64,000 nucleotides of DNA. Origin: a bacterium. Lineage in GTDB: Bacteria > Patescibacteriota > Minisyncoccia > Moranbacterales > UBA2206. The stretch is from the NCBI GenBank assembly GCA_029567195.1, contig JAKQLJ010000023.1:4626-68625 (forward strand). The letters run 5' to 3'. Below are positions 18,683 through 63,534 of the stretch, piece after piece. The number at the start of each line of letters is the position of its first letter. The first letter of the stretch is position 1. The notes beneath the pieces were generated by a model, which saw only the letters and a program-made list of their open reading frames with translations, was not told the origin of the DNA and did no database searches. Made by a program: the position numbers and the translations under genes.

Positions 18683-19672
18683 ATGAAGAATAATTTTTGG
18701 TTAAAATTAAAAAAGCCAATTTTGGCTTTGGCTCCAATGGCCGGCATCACTGACAGCGCTTTCCGGCAAATTTGCCGGAAATATGGAGCCGATGTTACTT
18801 ACAGCGAAATGGCCAGCGTTTCAGCGCTGTTTTTTAAGCCCCAAAAAACCTTGGAATTAGTGAGGTTTAATAAATCAGAACGGCCTTATGTGGTCCAGCT
18901 ATTTGGTAAGAATCCAAAGCATTTTGCCGCATCCGCTAAAATTATAACTGAAAAAATCAAACCGGATGGCATTGATATCAACTTTGGCTGTCCGGCTAAA
19001 AAAGTTTTCGGTCATGGCAGTGGTTGCGCCCTTATGCCGCAAAAAGAACTGGCTAGGGAGATAATTTCAGCGGTTTGTGAAAACACTTCTCTTCCGGTTT
19101 CCATTAAAATTAGAGCTGGAATAAAAGATATGACTGCTTTTGATTTTATTAAAAATACGGCTGATCTTCCCTACTCTGCCATCATGGTTCACGGTCGGAC
19201 ATACGAAGGCAGTTTTTCAGGAGAGGTGGATTTTTCCATTTGCGAAAAGATAAAAAAAATGGTTCCGGAAAAAATTGTTCTTGGAAATGGCGGGATCATG
19301 ACATCCGAAAACGCTAAAAATATTTTGAAGCGCTATCCTCTGCTTGATGGTTTGGGGATCGCCCGCGGGGCATGGGGAAGGCCGTGGATATTTGAAGAAA
19401 TTAGAGGAATTATAAATGTAGGGACGGATCTTGTATCCGTCCAAAAAAGGACAGACACAAGGTCTGTCCCTACAAAGTATTATTTTTCAAAAACCAAAAA
19501 AATAATGCTTGAGCACGCCAAATTGATATATAAAGACAAAGGAAAAACAGGATTATTTGAAATCAGGAAACATATGTGCTGGTATATTCGCGGCTTTCCG
19601 GGTGCGGCAGAAATGAGAAAAAAATTGGTAATGGCGAAAAGTTTAAAGGAAATTATTGATATTTTAAATTAA
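18683..19672 (+). CDS. dusB: tRNA-dihydrouridine synthase
   Basis: LAPMAGITDSAFRQICRKYGADVTYSEM, INFGCPAKKV, and GIARGAWGRPWIF. Confidence 0.88.
   Translation: MKNNFWLKLKKPILALAPMAGITDSAFRQICRKYGADVTYSEMASVSALFFKPQKTLELVRFNKSERPYVVQLFGKNPKHFAASAKIITEKIKPDGIDINFGCPAKKVFGHGSGCALMPQKELAREIISAVCENTSLPVSIKIRAGIKDMTAFDFIKNTADLPYSAIMVHGRTYEGSFSGEVDFSICEKIKKMVPEKIVLGNGGIMTSENAKNILKRYPLLDGLGIARGAWGRPWIFEEIRGIINVGTDLVSVQKRTDTRSVPTKYYFSKTKKIMLEHAKLIYKDKGKTGLFEIRKHMCWYIRGFPGAAEMRKKLVMAKSLKEIIDILN
19418..19473. repeat. 56-nt double-hairpin palindrome inserted in frame in dusB
   Basis: gtagggacggatcttgtatccgtcc aaaaaa ggacagacacaaggtctgtccctac. These are two inverted copies of a 25-nt hairpin unit. It encodes VGTDLVSVQKRTDTRSVPT. 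Confidence 0.85.
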
Positions 19673-19707: not shown

Positions 19708-20529
19708 TTATTCTTCTGCTGGCTCTGTCCAGATTCTTTTTTTGTGGGTAGACTGAGACACTTGCAGAGTAGATGTGTTGTCCATTGTTGTTATTGTTTT
19801 GTTGATAAAGTCCACTCTTGAGTTTGGAGGTATCAAAAACTTCTTAATCAGTTCTCCGGTTCCGGCATTGAAAATCTTCATGTATCTTTCTGGAAGATCC
19901 GGAGTCCAAATGCCAAATTTCATCGGCGCTATGCCGACAATCACTTCCCGCGGGTATGTTTCGTCATATCCAAACCATTCCTCTCCCCAAACCACTTCTC
20001 GTTGACCTTTAGAGTACCAACCGATTGTGGTCCTGAATGTTTTTTTTACGATGTCGTAAACTCGCACTTCGCCGCCGATGATATTCTTGGTATCGCGACG
20101 ATAAAGCATGAGATATGCTTTATCTTTGAGTATTTTGTAGCTGTCTATCCAGCATGAGTTGTCAAATTTCAGTCGCAGGACATTAATTTTGCCGTAATAG
20201 TCAACCTCGGCAACAATGAATGTTTGCGCTTGGTTGTCATGTTTATAAATGAAAGATATCATGAATCGGTCGTAATAATACGACTGAATCTTATCGAACT
20301 GCAAATCGTCAATGGACCATCCTTTTCCCAGAGGAATAGTATAGGTCGCTTCTCTCCAAGTGCAGGCCATTTCCAGCCAGCTCTCATAGGTTTCGCTGTC
20401 CGTTTTGATCGCATAGGCGTTTCCGCCTTGATTCACATCGGCCCAACGGGAAACAACAATGGCGCTTGCGTCGGAAGAAATTGCAACCAACGCTGCCAAA
20501 ACCAAGAATGCAGTAAGAAGTTTTTTCAT
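19708..20529 (-). CDS. Secreted hypothetical protein (Sec signal peptide), G+C-richer islet
   Basis: MKKLLTAFLVLAALVAISSDASA signal peptide. No family was recognised. It has its own promoter and leader. Confidence 0.7.
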   Translation of the reverse strand: MKKLLTAFLVLAALVAISSDASAIVVSRWADVNQGGNAYAIKTDSETYESWLEMACTWREATYTIPLGKGWSIDDLQFDKIQSYYYDRFMISFIYKHDNQAQTFIVAEVDYYGKINVLRLKFDNSCWIDSYKILKDKAYLMLYRRDTKNIIGGEVRVYDIVKKTFRTTIGWYSKGQREVVWGEEWFGYDETYPREVIVGIAPMKFGIWTPDLPERYMKIFNAGTGELIKKFLIPPNSRVDFINKTITTMDNTSTLQVSQSTHKKRIWTEPAEE

Positions 20530-33293: not shown

Positions 33294-33644
33294 ATGAGTT
33301 CATTGAAAGTTGTTGTAGCAGTTGTAGTTTTTTTGGCAACGGTTTTTTTCTCTGGTGTCGGAGTGTCGGAAGCTGGCAGGAAGTTTGATCCACAGAACAA
33401 TTTCCGGCATGATGCTTCCACCAAAACCGGAATGGACAGAGACGAGGCCAACAATTCGGTCCGGGGGCCAAACGGTTCTGAAAAGGCGCCCAAGGTTCCA
33501 AGCAAGAAGGCTCCGGTTATCATTAATGATTCACCGGGCGTTCGCAAGATTCAGATTGGAGACGAACCGGGCGTTCGGAAGGTTCCCATCCATGACGATA
33601 ACCAAAACTGTCAGCAGTTCGTTCCGAACAACTGCTGCCAGTAG
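33294..33644 (+). CDS. Orphan secreted protein P1 (116 aa) of the G+C-rich island
   Basis: SD aaaggaggattttATG. Signal peptide ..FFSGVGVSEA. Tandem PGVRK(I/V) motif. C-terminal Cys cluster NCQQFVPNNCCQ. A strong terminator follows. Confidence 0.7.
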   Translation: MSSLKVVVAVVVFLATVFFSGVGVSEAGRKFDPQNNFRHDASTKTGMDRDEANNSVRGPNGSEKAPKVPSKKAPVIINDSPGVRKIQIGDEPGVRKVPIHDDNQNCQQFVPNNCCQ

Positions 33645-33646
33645 CC

Positions 33647-33690
33647 TTTGTAACCTTGGGGTGTAAAAACCCCAAGGTTACAAAATTAAT
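33647..33690 (+). terminator. Hairpin terminator after P1
   Basis: tttgtaaccttgggg-tgtaaaaa-ccccaaggttacaaa, a 15-bp perfect stem. Confidence 0.7.
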
Positions 33691-33724
33691 TTAAAATTCA
33701 ATATCAGTTGTTTTTTATACTATA

Positions 33725-33753
33725 TTGACAACATAATATTTTAGGAGTATAAT
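33725..33753 (+). promoter_or_regulatory. Consensus sigma70-type promoter for P2
   Basis: TTGACA (33725-33730), 17 nt, TATAAT (33748-33753). An AT-rich leader of about 170 nt follows, containing the hairpin ggctggaatgtttccagcc (33873-33891). Confidence 0.65.
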
Positions 33754-33931
33754 GAGTTGTTGGAAATGCGAATATTGCTTTTCTTTAGGAATTTTTATAT
33801 AATTTAAGAATTTCAAAAGAAGCGCAATATATTATATTGGCTTCATGGTTCATTGAGCAAGTTTTATTCAAAGGCTGGAATGTTTCCAGCCGGAGAATTT
33901 AACGAAAAATGGCAAACAGGAGGAAAAAGCC

Positions 33932-34336
33932 ATGAAAAAGATCAGTATTCTGTTGGTGTTGGTGTGTTTTGTCGTGGCGGCGGCCGTTCCGGCTTTCGCT
34001 CAACAGCCCCCGAGGGGGATGAAGACCGCTCGGACGTATATCACGCCGAGTGGTGGACATTCTTCGGAGTCCAGGGATGCCGTTCGCGTGGACGGATTCC
34101 GGGTTGGCTTCTGGGGAGCACCGTGCTGCCCCATGGACAAGCCTGGGATGCTTCAGCGATGGGTGTGCGATGAAAATGAAATTTTCAATGCCATTTTCAC
34201 CACCGAAGCTGAGGCCAAGGAGTTCATCAGGAATCCCCAAAGAGGGAGATCCTGGAGATCGGCCATAGACAATACCCCGCTTGTTCCCGATCCCAGCGCT
34301 CCCAAGGCCCGGCAAGCAACCTTGCCCATGAAGTAA
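33932..34336 (+). CDS. Orphan secreted protein P2 (134 aa)
   Basis: SD caggaggaaaaagccATG. Signal peptide MKKISILLVLVCFVVAAAVPAFA|QQ. No family was recognised. Confidence 0.75.
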   Translation: MKKISILLVLVCFVVAAAVPAFAQQPPRGMKTARTYITPSGGHSSESRDAVRVDGFRVGFWGAPCCPMDKPGMLQRWVCDENEIFNAIFTTEAEAKEFIRNPQRGRSWRSAIDNTPLVPDPSAPKARQATLPMK

Positions 34337-34345
34337 CATCTTTCA

Positions 34346-34385
34346 GACCCCCCGGCCGGATTTCCGGTTCGGGGGTCGTTTTTTA
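34346..34385 (+). terminator. Intrinsic terminator between P2 and P3
   Basis: gacccccc-ggccggatttccggtt-cgggggtc followed by gtttttt. Confidence 0.8.
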
Positions 34386-34398
34386 TAGGAGATAGCCC

Positions 34399-34752
34399 AT
34401 GGCAATAAAGGTAGTTTTTCGACCGGGGAGATGGAGAGGAACGCCCAAAAAGGGCACAATGACACCGCGAAAGAGTGTCGGATGGGTTAAGGACAGCGCT
34501 GGAGACGAATGGGAAGTTCTTTTCTGGCAAGTGAAAAACAAGTTGTCAGCCGCCCAATTTCTCATTCGCGCTGACCTTTCCGTAGGAAGAAAGATATTTT
34601 TCTCCACAGAAGAGGAAGCGCGAGCATGGTTGGCCAATCCGATTCTTCCGACGCTGGAAGAAATCAAGAAAGAATTGGCCAAATGCGAGTGGCATGAACC
34701 CAGCAAGGGTCTCATTCAGGTATGGATGGACTTCTGGCGGGAGGAAGAATAG
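34399..34752 (+). CDS. Cytoplasmic paralog P3 (117 aa) of secreted P2
   Basis: SD aggaga 6 nt before the ATG and no signal peptide. It shares V.FW-(22 aa)-IF..F[ST]TE.EA[KR]..[IL].NP with P2. Confidence 0.65.
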   Translation: MAIKVVFRPGRWRGTPKKGTMTPRKSVGWVKDSAGDEWEVLFWQVKNKLSAAQFLIRADLSVGRKIFFSTEEEARAWLANPILPTLEEIKKELAKCEWHEPSKGLIQVWMDFWREEE

Positions 34753-34757
34753 CAGTA

Positions 34758-34795
34758 AATCCCCGGAGAGAATAATCTCTTCCGGGGATTTTTTT
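34758..34795 (+). terminator. Intrinsic terminator after P3
   Basis: aatccccggagaga-ataa-tctcttccggggattttttt. Confidence 0.85.
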
Positions 34796-34828
34796 AAGAA
34801 GGAAATTTGGCAAATTTTTTATTGATTA

Positions 34829-34857
34829 TTGACAGGAATGCATAATTGGTGTAGTAT
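34829..34857 (+). promoter_or_regulatory. Sigma70-type promoter for P4
   Basis: TTGACA (34829-34834), 17 nt, TAGTAT (34852-34857). Confidence 0.6.
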
Positions 34858-34925
34858 TCAATATCAAAGAATGTTGGCTCGATGTAAGGTTGCTTTGAAA
34901 AATACAGGAAAAAAGGAGAAAGTTT

Positions 34926-35753
34926 ATGAAAAAAGTTCTTTTTATTTTGGTTGTTTTAGCTCTGGCAATGGCAGTCGGGACGGATGTTTTTGCGGCATTC
35001 AATCCGCCGCTCGTAAGAGGAGAGACTTATTTCCTGAAAAACCCCAATCCGTGGGATGGAGATCCGGTGTATTTCGGTCTAAATTATCGGGTCAGGGAGG
35101 GAAACAATCCTCTTGAGGTGGAACGCATGATAGCATGCGTTCCCGCCAAAGATTTGTTTAACGACGAAAGTCGTGGAAACGAACTTTTGGTTGTTCCCTG
35201 GATCACTGGCGTACACCCGGACGAAAGCGACGTAAATCACCTGAGGGGTATGTGGCTCACGGAAGCTGGATGCTTTTCTTGCGAAGGCAGGAGCGCATAC
35301 CAGTCGGCCAGGTTCATGGACGGGAAAAGCACTTACGACAAAGTGCTGAAGGGAACGGATCGGGTAAATATTTACCCCAGGATGGTCCTTCCCGGTTCAT
35401 CCGCTCCTGGAACCCTTTTATCCTGGATGAGAAACCATGTCTATTGGACGAGACTTTTCGGGGGGCATTATTCCGGTTTTTCTTTTAGGATAAAGGAGAA
35501 CCGGACTCCGGCAGATGTGGAAATCATGGTCCTTTGTGTCGGTGGCGTTCCGACTCCTTGGATTAGTGGGATTCGCCTCCTTCAAAAGGATCTTGTCGCG
35601 TTAAGAGCCCTTTACGGTTCAGGATGTTTCACCTGCGCTGGAGTGCCGGAATACGGTCTGGCTGTTCCGACAGACGGGCGTGACGATCCTTATGTGAGAC
35701 GTTACAGAAAACCGACAGGGGTTCCCAAGATTTCTTTTCCGTCCAATCCATAA
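34926..35753 (+). CDS. Orphan secreted protein P4 (275 aa) with an internal duplication carrying GCF[ST]C.G motifs
   Basis: SD aaaggagaaagtttATG. Signal peptide ..AMAVGTDVFA|AF. Repeat A is VERMIACV..PWITGV..LRGMWLTEAGCFSCEG and repeat B is VEIMVLCV..PWISGI..LRALYGSGCFTCAG. Confidence 0.75.
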   Translation: MKKVLFILVVLALAMAVGTDVFAAFNPPLVRGETYFLKNPNPWDGDPVYFGLNYRVREGNNPLEVERMIACVPAKDLFNDESRGNELLVVPWITGVHPDESDVNHLRGMWLTEAGCFSCEGRSAYQSARFMDGKSTYDKVLKGTDRVNIYPRMVLPGSSAPGTLLSWMRNHVYWTRLFGGHYSGFSFRIKENRTPADVEIMVLCVGGVPTPWISGIRLLQKDLVALRALYGSGCFTCAGVPEYGLAVPTDGRDDPYVRRYRKPTGVPKISFPSNP

Positions 35754-38301: not shown

Positions 38302-38370
38302 GTTAAAATATCAATAGTTGGATTTGCTTAACATTATGATAGCCATTTTATAGGAATAATTTTTGTCCGC

Positions 38371-38490
38371 TGTCATTCCCGCGCAGGCCATGCCTACTGG
38401 CAGGCAGGCCTGCCTGCCAGTAGGCAGGCGAAAATCCAGTCTTCATAATCTAGCTTGTTTTCTGGATTCCCAATCAAGTTGGGAATGACA
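38371..38490. repeat. GC-rich composite palindromic repeat, copy 4
   Basis: tgtcattcccgcgcaggccatgcctactggcaggcaggcctgcctgccagtaggcaggcg...ctggattcccaatcaagttgggaatgaca. It shares termini and ctgcctgccagtaggca with copy 3. Confidence 0.8.
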
Positions 38491-63114: not shown

Positions 63115-63150
63115 ATATTGGTCAAATTATCAGCAATTTCAAATATTTAT

Positions 63151-63534
63151 CAAGGCAAATCTATAAGCCGGATTCTGTCAAAAGCAGTCATTTATCTGGG
63201 ATGATGATTACTCATCACCTCAAGCGGCACTTCCCATATTTACGTAAAATACAGGACACGACCTTGCATTCTGGTAAGGATTTAGCCGTTTCACTCCCGC
63301 ACTAACTTTACGCTGGCACTAACGTGCCAAAAAAAAGCGTAAAATTAGTGCGGGACTACGCCCTACTTTTCAATAGAGCGCCCATAATAATTTCTTATTA
63401 TGGCGTCTCTGCTCGCACCTCTGTCCTTGCGGACGACGGGTGTTACCCGCTACCATTGTCCCGCCATAAGCGAAACTAAATGTCCGGACTTTCCTCCCCG
63501 ACTTTACGTCGGGGCAACTGCCCAATTTGCCTTG
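63151..63534 (-). ncRNA. rnpB: RNase P RNA (bacterial type A)
   Basis: The minus strand contains the P3 hairpin ccccgacgtaaagtcgggg followed by GAGGAAAGTCCGGAC (CR-I). It also has gggagtgaaacggc and ACAGAATCCGGCTTATAG (CR-V). P1 pairs caaggcaaat with atttgccttg at the two ends. Confidence 0.9.

What the first reader, a model, noticed from the sequence alone, without database searches (positions are those of the whole stretch)
19418..19473. In-frame 56-nt double-hairpin palindrome inserted in the dusB coding sequence
Inside dusB, right after the conserved GRPWIFEEI block, lies gtagggacggatcttgtatccgtcc-aaaaaa-ggacagacacaaggtctgtccctac.
- The two 25-nt halves are inverted copies of each other, about 84% identical after reverse-complementing.
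- Each half is itself a hairpin: ggacggat/atccgtcc and ggacagac/gtctgtcc.
- The differences between the halves are compensatory, so both hairpins stay perfect. This argues for selection on, or copying of, DNA/RNA structure rather than protein sequence.
- The outer 8 nt (gtagggac/gtccctac) can close the whole element.

It is translated as (N)VGTDLVSVQKRTDTRSVPT(K), an extra loop relative to what I expect for Dus enzymes. It looks like a miniature REP/MITE-type element that landed in frame in an essential-type gene and is tolerated. Alternatively it is an RNA element embedded in the mRNA.
Basis: seen in the sequence. Interest (0 to 1): 0.6.

Follow-up and report, generated by a model that had tools for sequence, protein, structure and literature searches.

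The report
REP hairpin pair inside Dus gene
A 56-base pair of mobile "REP" hairpins, of a kind that usually sits between genes, has landed in frame in the flexible hinge of a tRNA-modifying enzyme of a tiny-genome bacterium; this kind of event is known, but this hinge is hit unusually often.

Summary
Window 19418-19473 is GTAG+8-bp stem+5-nt loop, an A6 spacer, then the same unit inverted, in frame in a Dus gene of a Candidatus Moranbacteria (CPR) genome.

It is not an ancestral loop. T. maritima Dus, distant CPR Dus and about 25 of 120 close orthologs have a minimal 20-aa linker.

It is an inverted dimer of a GTAG-tagged REP. The 25-nt unit occurs at least 141 times in at least 119 genome stretches from dozens of phyla, often as inverted pairs. 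In three phyla it flanks REP-associated tyrosine transposase (RAYT) genes with subclass 2.4 motifs. One window unit matches Prevotella RAYT-flanking REPs 25/25.

AlphaFold2 places the 19 encoded residues as the only disordered segment, between the TIM barrel and the C-terminal helical domain.

In-frame REPs are already published (Di Nocera 2013; Quentin 2018; Rickettsia RPEs), so this is a new member of a known kind.

The less ordinary part is the site. About 80% of Moranbacteria Dus carry some palindrome-derived insert there, from at least 8 families. Carriers of one family are not each other's relatives, and near-identical proteins differ by presence or absence. REPs are almost absent from the flanking DNA, and no RAYT was found nearby. 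Why this hinge is hit so often remains open.

The parts
19418..19442 (+). Left REP unit: 5' GTAG tag, 8-bp stem GGACGGAT/ATCCGTCC, loop CTTGT
   Evidence: It fits GTAGGGRCRGAYCTTGYRTCYGYCC, a pattern found in at least 119 genome stretches.
19443..19448 (+). A6 spacer between the two units. It encodes part of Q254-K255-R256.
   Evidence: Spacer length varies from 6 to 21 nt in the orthologous copies.
19449..19473 (-). Right REP unit in inverted orientation. On the minus strand it reads GTAGGGACAGACCTTGTGTCTGTCC.
   Evidence: It is 25/25 identical to the REPs that flank the RAYT gene in Prevotella MAG locus L054, and to units in L088, L020 and L096.
19418..19473 (+). Whole inverted REP dimer with GTAG tags outward, translated in frame as VGTDLVSVQKRTDTRSVPT (Dus residues 246-264)
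   Evidence: The AlphaFold2 model has pLDDT below 50 only at residues 248-265.
18683..19672 (+). Host gene: tRNA-dihydrouridine synthase (Dus/NifR3 family), intact, with catalytic residues conserved
19376..19519 (+). Coding region for the interdomain linker (GRPWIF...KKIMLEHA), the clade-wide insertion hot spot that contains the element

Best explanation
The element is an inverted dimer of a GTAG-tagged repetitive extragenic palindrome (REP). It is of the 'canonical long' type that accompanies REP-associated tyrosine transposases (RAYT/TnpA-REP) of subclass 2.4 (Bertels group 4).

It became inserted into the DNA that encodes the short linker between the TIM-barrel and the C-terminal helical domain of Dus. 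Two of the three reading frames of the element are stop-free in either orientation, and the net length change is a multiple of three. The gene therefore stays open, and the element is translated into a 19-residue hydrophilic, disordered surface loop that the enzyme tolerates.

Shown here:
- The anatomy of the element.
- Its family relationship to REPs that flank RAYT genes in other phyla.
- Empty sites in close and distant orthologs.
- The loop location in the protein model.
- Conservation of each unit's own hairpin.
- Rapid turnover at the site.

Inferred, not shown:
- That a RAYT (an HUH Y1 enzyme that recognises the hairpin and the GTAG on single-stranded DNA) moved it in this lineage.
- That the loop is actually translated.
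- That the insertion is selectively neutral.
For: 1. Anatomy. GTAG sits directly at the foot of an 8-bp G+C-rich stem with a 5-nt loop, twice, in inverted orientation.

2. Family.
- The degenerate 25-mer occurs in at least 119 stretches (141 units) from dozens of phyla, and is multi-copy within genomes.
- 51 of 141 units have an inverted partner within 130 nt.
- Stem pair 9/21 is 100% Watson-Crick (74 A-T, 67 G-C), although the search pattern allowed mismatches there.

3. RAYT association.
- The unit flanks a RAYT gene in inverted arrays in Prevotella L054 (Pfam Y1_Tnp 1.5e-8; NCBIfam REP_Tyr_transpos 87.1 bits, cut-off 80).
- It also flanks RAYT-like genes in Atribacterota L083 and in the Microbulbifer isolate L067. 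Those two score 64.6 and 59.8 bits, below the NCBIfam cut-off of 80.
- The L054 and L083 proteins carry the NH[IFV]H / WQ / YIxNNP motifs of subclass 2.4. That subclass is described as scattered over many phyla, with REPs inserted in frame in genes (PMC6006769).

4. It is an insertion.
- T. maritima Dus 1vhn has the short linker RSGKYSEP.
- About 25 of 120 Moranbacteria Dus, and all 8 more distant homologs aligned (31-55% identity), have short linkers.
- A filled/empty pair that is about 89% identical over aligned residues differs by a 54-nt gap exactly at the element.

5. It is tolerated. In the AlphaFold2 model (mean pLDDT 87.5) the only segment below 50 is residues 248-265, between helix 236-245 and helix 268-301. 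Catalytic residues are conserved.

6. The same REP family sits in frame in other genes: FemAB of a Parcubacteria genome (L096) and a Mur ligase (L034).

7. Precedent: intragenic GTAG REPs and dimers encoding 20-30 aa have been described (PMC3733652).
Against: - No second copy of the unit and no RAYT gene lie in the 64-kb window or in about 260 kb of related Moranbacteria DNA. Mobility within this lineage is therefore not demonstrated.
- No target-site duplication or clean junction is visible. The window copy has also lost about 5 ancestral linker residues.
- The units are more conserved among orthologs (81-84% identity) than the flanking coding DNA (70-72%). This could also mean constraint in place.
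- REP-type hairpins are almost confined to dus in the sampled contigs. 'Random insertion plus tolerance' does not by itself explain that.
Confidence: 0.8

Rival explanations
1. The hairpins are kept by selection in place, as a functional RNA or DNA structure inside the dus message. Possible roles are a translational pause at the domain boundary that helps the TIM barrel fold, a stability or processing signal, or a site bound by Dus itself for feedback. REP-like sequences would merely be the raw material.
For: - Both local hairpins are 99.2% paired across 8 orthologs, with 7 of 16 pairs changed on both sides (0 of 500 shuffles reach this).
- The units are more conserved than the neighbouring coding DNA.
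- About 80% of the clade has some palindrome at exactly the domain boundary.
- Perfect G+C-rich hairpins are several-fold enriched in dus relative to its flanks.
- The mismatches that do occur are mostly G:T, which would pair in RNA.
Against: - About 20% of orthologs, and nearly all distant homologs, lack any insert.
- At least 8 unrelated families, and apparently decayed remnants without hairpins, occupy the site.
- Carriers of one family are no closer to each other than random pairs, and their nearest relatives are empty or carry other families.
- The same covariation is present in the cross-phylum REP pool, so it is inherited from the source rather than evolved in place.
- There is no Rfam family.
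Confidence: 0.12
2. The element did not transpose in each lineage. One or a few old insertions were passed among Moranbacteria by homologous recombination of dus segments (cassette exchange after DNA uptake). This would give the patchy distribution without any local RAYT.
For: - The distribution on the Dus tree is patchy.
- There is no RAYT and no other REP copy in the sampled Moranbacteria DNA.
- All 8 copies are read in the same frame, and 5 of 8 follow the same AAT codon.
- The sequence on both sides of the linker is conserved.
Against: - The 90 nt on either side of the linker are no more similar among carriers than between carriers and non-carriers (0.723 vs 0.719 upstream; 0.696 vs 0.695 downstream).
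- Junction positions differ by 0-3 codons on the left and also vary on the right.
- Very short conversion tracts cannot be excluded.
Confidence: 0.15
3. The segment is an ancestral, lineage-specific loop of Dus whose DNA happens to be palindromic, or it is an assembly artefact.
For: None beyond its being in frame.
Against: - Empty sites with the T. maritima-like linker occur throughout the clade.
- Eight independent assemblies carry the family.
- The unit is identical to REPs of unrelated phyla.
- Zero matches are expected by chance.
Confidence: 0.01

Closest known systems
GTAG-tagged REPs and their RAYT/TnpA-REP transposases, specifically the 'canonical long' and 'double foot' REPs of TnpA-REP subclass 2.4 / RAYT group 4 (Nunvar 2010; Ton-Hoang 2012; Di Nocera 2013, PMC3733652; Quentin 2018, PMC6006769)
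   Same: - A 5' GTAG sits directly at the foot of a G+C-rich stem-loop, and the units form inverted dimers.
- The family is multi-copy in many genomes.
- The same unit flanks RAYT genes with NH[IFV]H/WQ/YIxNNP motifs.
- In-frame insertions that encode about 20 aa are documented for this class, including in tRNA-modification genes (pseudouridine synthases).
   Different: - Here the host is a CPR (Moranbacteria) genome in which no RAYT and no other copy was found in the DNA available.
- The copy is intragenic rather than extragenic.
- The stem foot is GGA/TCC rather than three G-C pairs.
- One protein linker is hit again and again across a whole clade.
REPINs (REP doublets forming hairpins; Bertels and Rainey 2011)
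   Same: Two inverted REPs are separated by a short spacer. In the window copy they are predicted to fold into one long hairpin (-44 kcal/mol).
   Different: - Across orthologous copies the arm-to-arm helix shows no covariation, and only each unit's own hairpin does.
- The two units of a dimer often belong to different sequence variants.
- No population of sister copies is seen in this genome fragment.
Rickettsia palindromic elements (RPE; Ogata 2000)
   Same: Palindromic selfish DNA is inserted in frame in housekeeping genes of a reduced genome, and is translated as a surface segment.
   Different: RPE-1 is 100-150 bp and unrelated in sequence. The short RPE-4 and RPE-6 carry the CGTC tag, not GTAG (PMC3733652).
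Translational bypass elements ('byps') of Magnusiomyces mitochondria and T4 gene 60
   Same: A G+C-rich hairpin insert sits inside a coding sequence of an A+T-rich genome.
   Different: Those inserts are skipped by the ribosome and need not be in frame. Here every copy is stop-free and preserves the frame, so plain translation is sufficient. Bypassing was not tested.

Membership tests
GTAG-tagged REP (RAYT-associated) | 5' GT[AG]G tetranucleotide directly at the foot of a stem-loop of about 20-40 nt | tested here: met
   GTAG plus an 8-bp stem and a 5-nt loop, on both arms.
GTAG-tagged REP (RAYT-associated) | Hairpin maintained across copies by compensated changes | tested here: met
   Eight orthologous copies are 99.2% paired, with 7 of 16 pairs changed on both sides. 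In 141 units from other genomes, pair 9/21 is 100% Watson-Crick with two alternative pairs.
GTAG-tagged REP (RAYT-associated) | Many dispersed copies within one genome | tested here: inconclusive
   Met in other genomes, for example Sedimentibacter saalensis, Uabimicrobium, Thermoanaerobaculia and Prevotella MAGs. In this organism only 64 kb is available and it holds no other copy. About 180 kb of flanks in relatives hold essentially none.
GTAG-tagged REP (RAYT-associated) | The same REP flanks a RAYT (Y1 HUH) gene, forming a 'REPtron' | tested here: inconclusive
   Met in L054 (which passes the NCBIfam REP_Tyr_transpos cut-off), L083 and L067. No RAYT was found by tblastn in the window or in the Moranbacteria loci.
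GTAG-tagged REP (RAYT-associated) | Extragenic location | tested here: not met
   The element lies inside the Dus ORF. Published exceptions exist (PMC3733652; PMC6006769), so this does not exclude membership.
GTAG-tagged REP (RAYT-associated) | Cleavage or binding by a cognate RAYT | not testable with these tools
   This needs biochemistry.
REPIN (REP doublet forming one hairpin) | Two inverted REPs separated by a short spacer | tested here: met
   The spacer is 6 nt here and 6-21 nt in orthologs.
REPIN (REP doublet forming one hairpin) | The long arm-to-arm hairpin is conserved as the replicating unit | tested here: not met
   88% paired, 1 compensated pair, no better than shuffles.
Rickettsia palindromic elements | Sequence family RPE-1 to RPE-8 (the short ones CGTC-tagged) | tested here: not met
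   The tag is GTAG and the sequence differs. Only the behaviour (in-frame insertion) is shared.
MITE (terminal inverted repeats plus target-site duplication) | Direct duplication of the target at both ends | tested here: not met
   The junctions AAT|GTAG...CTAC|AAAG, and the filled/empty alignment, show no duplication.
Described structured RNA (Rfam) | A covariance-model match at the family's threshold | tested here: not met
   Only generic hairpin (miRNA-precursor) matches, far below the gathering scores.
tRNA-dihydrouridine synthase (host gene) | Dus TIM-barrel domain with the conserved Cys, Lys, His and Arg, plus a C-terminal helical domain | tested here: met
   Pfam PF01207, 1.4e-62. PDB 1vhn 5.6e-42 and E. 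coli DusB 6ei9 1.6e-36. Invariant C103, K142, H170 and R172. The model has pTM 0.87.

The most novel reading that the evidence does not exclude
The Dus interdomain linker of Moranbacteria may be a true preferred landing or retention site for palindromic mobile DNA, rather than merely one tolerated insertion.

- About 80% of the clade's Dus genes carry an insert there, from at least 8 unrelated palindrome families.
- Turnover is fast enough that otherwise identical proteins differ by an indel at the site.
- REP-type hairpins are essentially absent from about 180 kb of flanking DNA.
- The neighbouring genes (CysS, DnaB, RecR, CorA, Obg) keep constant lengths.

This would imply one of three things:
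1. Targeting of a specific DNA site or structure by HUH-type or other transposases.
2. A 'shelter' effect, in which streamlined genomes purge inserts everywhere except where only precise in-frame deletions are viable.
3. Positive selection for a hairpin or a longer hinge at this domain boundary.
Probability: 0.3. Interest if true: 0.65.

Novelty: new member of a known kind. Interest (0 to 1): 0.4.

Why it matters
As a single element it is ordinary. It adds a CPR example to the known phenomenon of REPs and other palindromic selfish DNA being written into proteins as surface loops. It also shows that one REP sequence class is shared almost unchanged across dozens of phyla, while its transposases are only 30-40% identical.

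It has three practical consequences:
- Such inserts inflate and diversify predicted proteins in metagenomes.
- They create spurious 'lineage-specific loops'.
- They explain recurrent junk-like peptides (VGADLVSA..., GRTQGPPLR...).

If the hot-spot reading holds, the Dus hinge of Moranbacteria would be a natural system for two questions: how palindromic elements choose or survive at sites in extremely streamlined genomes, and how protein linkers evolve by capturing mobile DNA.

Tried and rejected
- **Rfam.** A search of the region at a permissive E-value gave only generic miRNA-like hairpin matches. The whole window gave only RNase P.
- **Ancestral loop.** Rejected by the ortholog alignments.
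- **In-place compensatory evolution as the sole cause of the covariation.** Disfavoured because the same covarying variants exist in the cross-phylum REP pool, and because carriers are polyphyletic.
- **Allele sharing by long recombination tracts.** The flanks are not more similar among carriers.
- **Survey of proteins that carry the encoded peptide.** This failed. The query was too short, and a 63-aa concatenate found no candidates in the word index.
- **Metagenome scan for orthologous loci.** It returned only 19 loci and not the window's own contig.
- **DNA for P0064 and P0075.** These are close relatives of an F1 carrier that hold other families. Their DNA could not be fetched.
- **Viral contigs.** Only 6 stretches hold the unit, so phages are not an obvious main vehicle.
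- **Literature.** A search for the exact unit sequence found nothing. Searches for CPR-specific reports of in-frame palindromes found none.
- **G+C-rich island at 33.3-35.7 kb.** It was checked as a possible large RNA. It reads as small secreted-protein genes with a terminator.

Full report
**The observation.**

Window 19418-19473 reads GTAG-GGACGGAT-CTTGT-ATCCGTCC-AAAAAA-GGACAGAC-ACAAG-GTCTGTCC-CTAC.
- The repeat finder gives two arms of 26 nt, 85% complementary and 6 nt apart, and two perfect 8-bp hairpins with 5-nt loops.
- The four differences between the halves are two fully compensated stem pairs.
- The 25-nt pattern matches nowhere else in the window, and none is expected in shuffles.
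- The RNA fold is -44 kcal/mol, z = -9.55.
- The element lies in ORF 18683-19672 (+), a 329-aa Dus-family protein (Pfam PF01207, 1.4e-62). It is translated as V246-T264.
- The genome is about 38% G+C. The closest named homologs are from Candidatus Moranbacteria, in the Candidate Phyla Radiation.

**It is an insertion, not an old loop.**

- T. maritima Dus (PDB 1vhn) aligns across the site with the short linker ...FLRSGKYSEP....
- Among the 120 closest Dus clusters (about 67-77% identity), roughly 25 have a 20-residue linker of the form xxIKxLLKxGKYxEYDFKKI. The others are longer.
- Eight more distant homologs aligned (31-55% identity) all have the short form.
- Most representatives of the wider family also have the short form.
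- P0005 (filled) and P0057 (empty) are about 89% identical over aligned residues. At the DNA level they differ by a 54-nt gap that coincides with the 56-nt element.

**What the element is.**

*Spread of the unit.*
- A degenerate form of the 25-nt unit, GTAGGGRCRGAYCTTGYRTCYGYCC, was scanned against one genome per species.
- The phyla include Atribacterota, Bacillota (Sedimentibacter, Oscillospiraceae), Bacteroidota, Planctomycetota, Acidobacteriota, Verrucomicrobiota, Chloroflexota, Nitrospirota, Pseudomonadota and CPR. Many genomes are hit several times.
- Fifteen sequence variants account for all units.
- At stem pair 9/21 the pattern allowed mismatches, yet all 141 units are Watson-Crick (74 A-T, 67 G-C).
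- 51 units have an inverted GTAG-hairpin partner within 130 nt.
- The window's right-hand unit is identical to a variant seen 12 times.

*Association with RAYT genes.*
- In Prevotella MAG locus L054, arrays of that variant flank, in inverted orientation, a 194-aa ORF. The ORF matches Pfam Y1_Tnp, and it matches NCBIfam 'REP-associated tyrosine transposase' above its curated cut-off.
- The same arrangement occurs around homologous genes in an Atribacterota MAG (L083) and in the isolate Microbulbifer zhoushanensis (L067). Those two proteins score below the NCBIfam cut-off.
- The three proteins are only 30-40% identical to one another.
- The L054 and L083 proteins carry the NH[IFV]H, WQ and YIxNNP motifs that Quentin et al. 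give for TnpA-REP subclass 2.4.
- That subclass is scattered across phyla. Its REPs have a G-C-rich stem foot or a 'double foot' (GTAG...CTAC), and they are found inserted in frame within genes (PMC6006769).
- Di Nocera et al. had already catalogued GTAG-tagged REPs in more than 80 species. They include intragenic single units and dimers that encode 20-30 residues, some in tRNA pseudouridine synthase genes (PMC3733652).

*Conclusion.* The element is therefore an inverted dimer of a known class of REP.

**Which structure is conserved.**

Eight Moranbacteria Dus genes from independent assemblies carry this family at the same site.
- On their alignment the two local hairpins are 99.2% paired, with 7 of 16 pairs changed on both sides. 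No shuffle of 500 reaches this.
- The long arm-to-arm helix is 88% paired, has one compensated pair, and is no better than shuffles.
- What is preserved is therefore each REP unit, as expected if units are drawn from a pool in which the hairpin is required.

**Where it sits in the protein.**

The AlphaFold2 model was built with 62 homologs (mean pLDDT 87.5, pTM 0.87).
- Only one segment has pLDDT below 50. It is residues 248-265, which is the insert.
- It lies between helix 236-245 at the end of the TIM barrel and helix 268-301, the first helix of the C-terminal helical domain.
- The catalytic residues are invariant.
- Two of the three frames of the element are open in either orientation. This makes survival inside ORFs easy.
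- The same REP family is in frame inside a FemAB-family gene of a Parcubacteria genome and inside a Mur ligase gene of an Oscillospiraceae MAG.

**The unexpected part: the site.**

*Occupancy.* At this one linker, the 120 Moranbacteria Dus proteins carry at least 8 recognisable palindrome-derived peptide families:
- VG[AT]DL...R.VPT (the family in this window)
- VGVQFIEP...GFDKSNPY
- CHPELVSGS...KQVRHD
- CHCERSEAIS...DSLAMT
- VETPRRGVST ('double foot')
- CRERKFAF...
- IHPVKYF...NLLNRV
- CHPELDSGS...KSGMT

There are also apparent remnants. The DNA, where available, confirms the palindromes.

*Turnover.*
- Carriers of the window's family are no closer to each other than random pairs (mean distance 0.249 against 0.246, p = 0.59).
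- Their nearest relatives, at 9-11% distance, are empty or hold other families.
- P0010 and P0019 are identical at all 316 aligned residues, except for a 5-residue indel inside the insert.
- The 90 nt flanking the linker are no more similar among carriers than between carriers and non-carriers. The units themselves are 81-84% identical, against 70-72% for those flanks.

*Restriction to dus.*
- In about 197 kb of Moranbacteria DNA, 24 of 28 GT[AG]G-tagged perfect hairpins are inside dus. The remainder is about what shuffling predicts.
- G+C-rich perfect hairpins number 14 in 10.9 kb of dus, against 28 in the other 164.6 kb.
- The neighbouring CysS, DnaB, RecR, CorA and Obg genes have nearly constant lengths on the same contigs, whereas Dus ranges from 309 to 370 aa.
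- No RAYT was found in the window or in these loci.

*Reading.* The simplest reading is recurrent gain, replacement and loss of palindromic elements at a permissive hinge of a dispensable enzyme. The degree of concentration on this gene and site is not explained by tolerance alone. Three ideas remain open: site targeting, a shelter from deletion bias in streamlined genomes, or selection for a hairpin or a longer hinge.

**Verdict.**

The element itself is a new member of a known kind: an intragenic GTAG-REP dimer of the RAYT subclass 2.4 type. Interest is moderate. It comes mainly from the clade-wide hot spot, and from the near-identity of this REP across phyla whose RAYTs have diverged strongly.

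Noticed in passing
window 38365-38490: An intergenic MITE-like element with terminal inverted repeats GTCATTCCC...GGGAATGAC. It carries a nested perfect 36-nt palindrome at 38391-38426 (TGCCTACTGGCAGGCAGG|CCTGCCTGCCAGTAGGCA), with CTAC/GTAG in the reverse arrangement to a REP.
   Followed up: partly
window 33300-35700: A G+C island (45-55%) in a 36-40% G+C genome, with no Pfam or Rfam match. Reading the sequence shows small ORFs: one has a signal peptide (33932-34336) and a strong terminator, and others follow (34399-34752, 34926-35753). This is probably foreign DNA rather than a large RNA.
   Followed up: partly
Dus homologs P0064, P0092, P0054, P0048, P0028, P0005; loci L127/L130 702-729 and 3744-3771: Other sites in Moranbacteria Dus also carry palindrome-derived in-frame inserts. 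Examples are PPHQR...FWCGG near the N-terminus, HPVKYFSITKNNF...NRV after SALFF, LRERACSRSDAGG, GRDAINRVST (GTAGAGACGCGATTAATCGCGTCTCTAC, a 'double foot' REP) and KPSFAKASAGKP.
   Followed up: partly
L130 2571-2612 and L131 4305-4323 (CysS genes of related genomes): A different palindrome, CCAAAGGTTCAACCTTTGG, single or doubled, lies in frame inside cysteinyl-tRNA synthetase. In-frame palindromes are therefore not exclusive to Dus in this clade.
   Followed up: no
L004 11137-11161: A GTAG-tagged hairpin of another family (GTAGATTCCGGATCAAGTCCGGAAT) sits in the dus-dnaB spacer, 126 nt after the dus stop. It is the only REP-like element found outside dus in the flanks of these loci.
   Followed up: no
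L151 48-2946; L154 4144-8612 (IMG/VR contigs): In two viral-collection contigs the REP unit recurs 3-4 times on one strand, at intervals of about 1.36-1.57 kb. This suggests a tandem array of gene-sized repeats each ending in a REP.
   Followed up: no
L044 1246-1480; L054 5887-6945; L084 426-; L042 6760-: In some genomes the unit or its half-stem is tandemly amplified. L044 has three copies at an exact 105-nt period. L084 and L042 have runs of CTGTGTCTGCC / CCGTCTGCC.
   Followed up: no
window 19708-20529 (-): A 273-aa ORF with a signal-peptide-like N-terminus and no Pfam match is wedged between dus and dnaB. ORFs of similar size (266-278 aa) occupy the same place in L002 and L156, but are absent in L004 and L147.
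   Followed up: no
window 63148-63533 (-): Bacterial RNase P RNA class A, 127.6 bits. The inverted repeat at 63295-63355 is one of its helices. No tRNA gene lies in the 64 kb.
   Followed up: yes
L146 1222-2673: In the contig of the filled allele P0005, the upstream CysS is called as two ORFs (222 + 255 aa). This points to a frameshift or stop, or to an assembly error.
   Followed up: no
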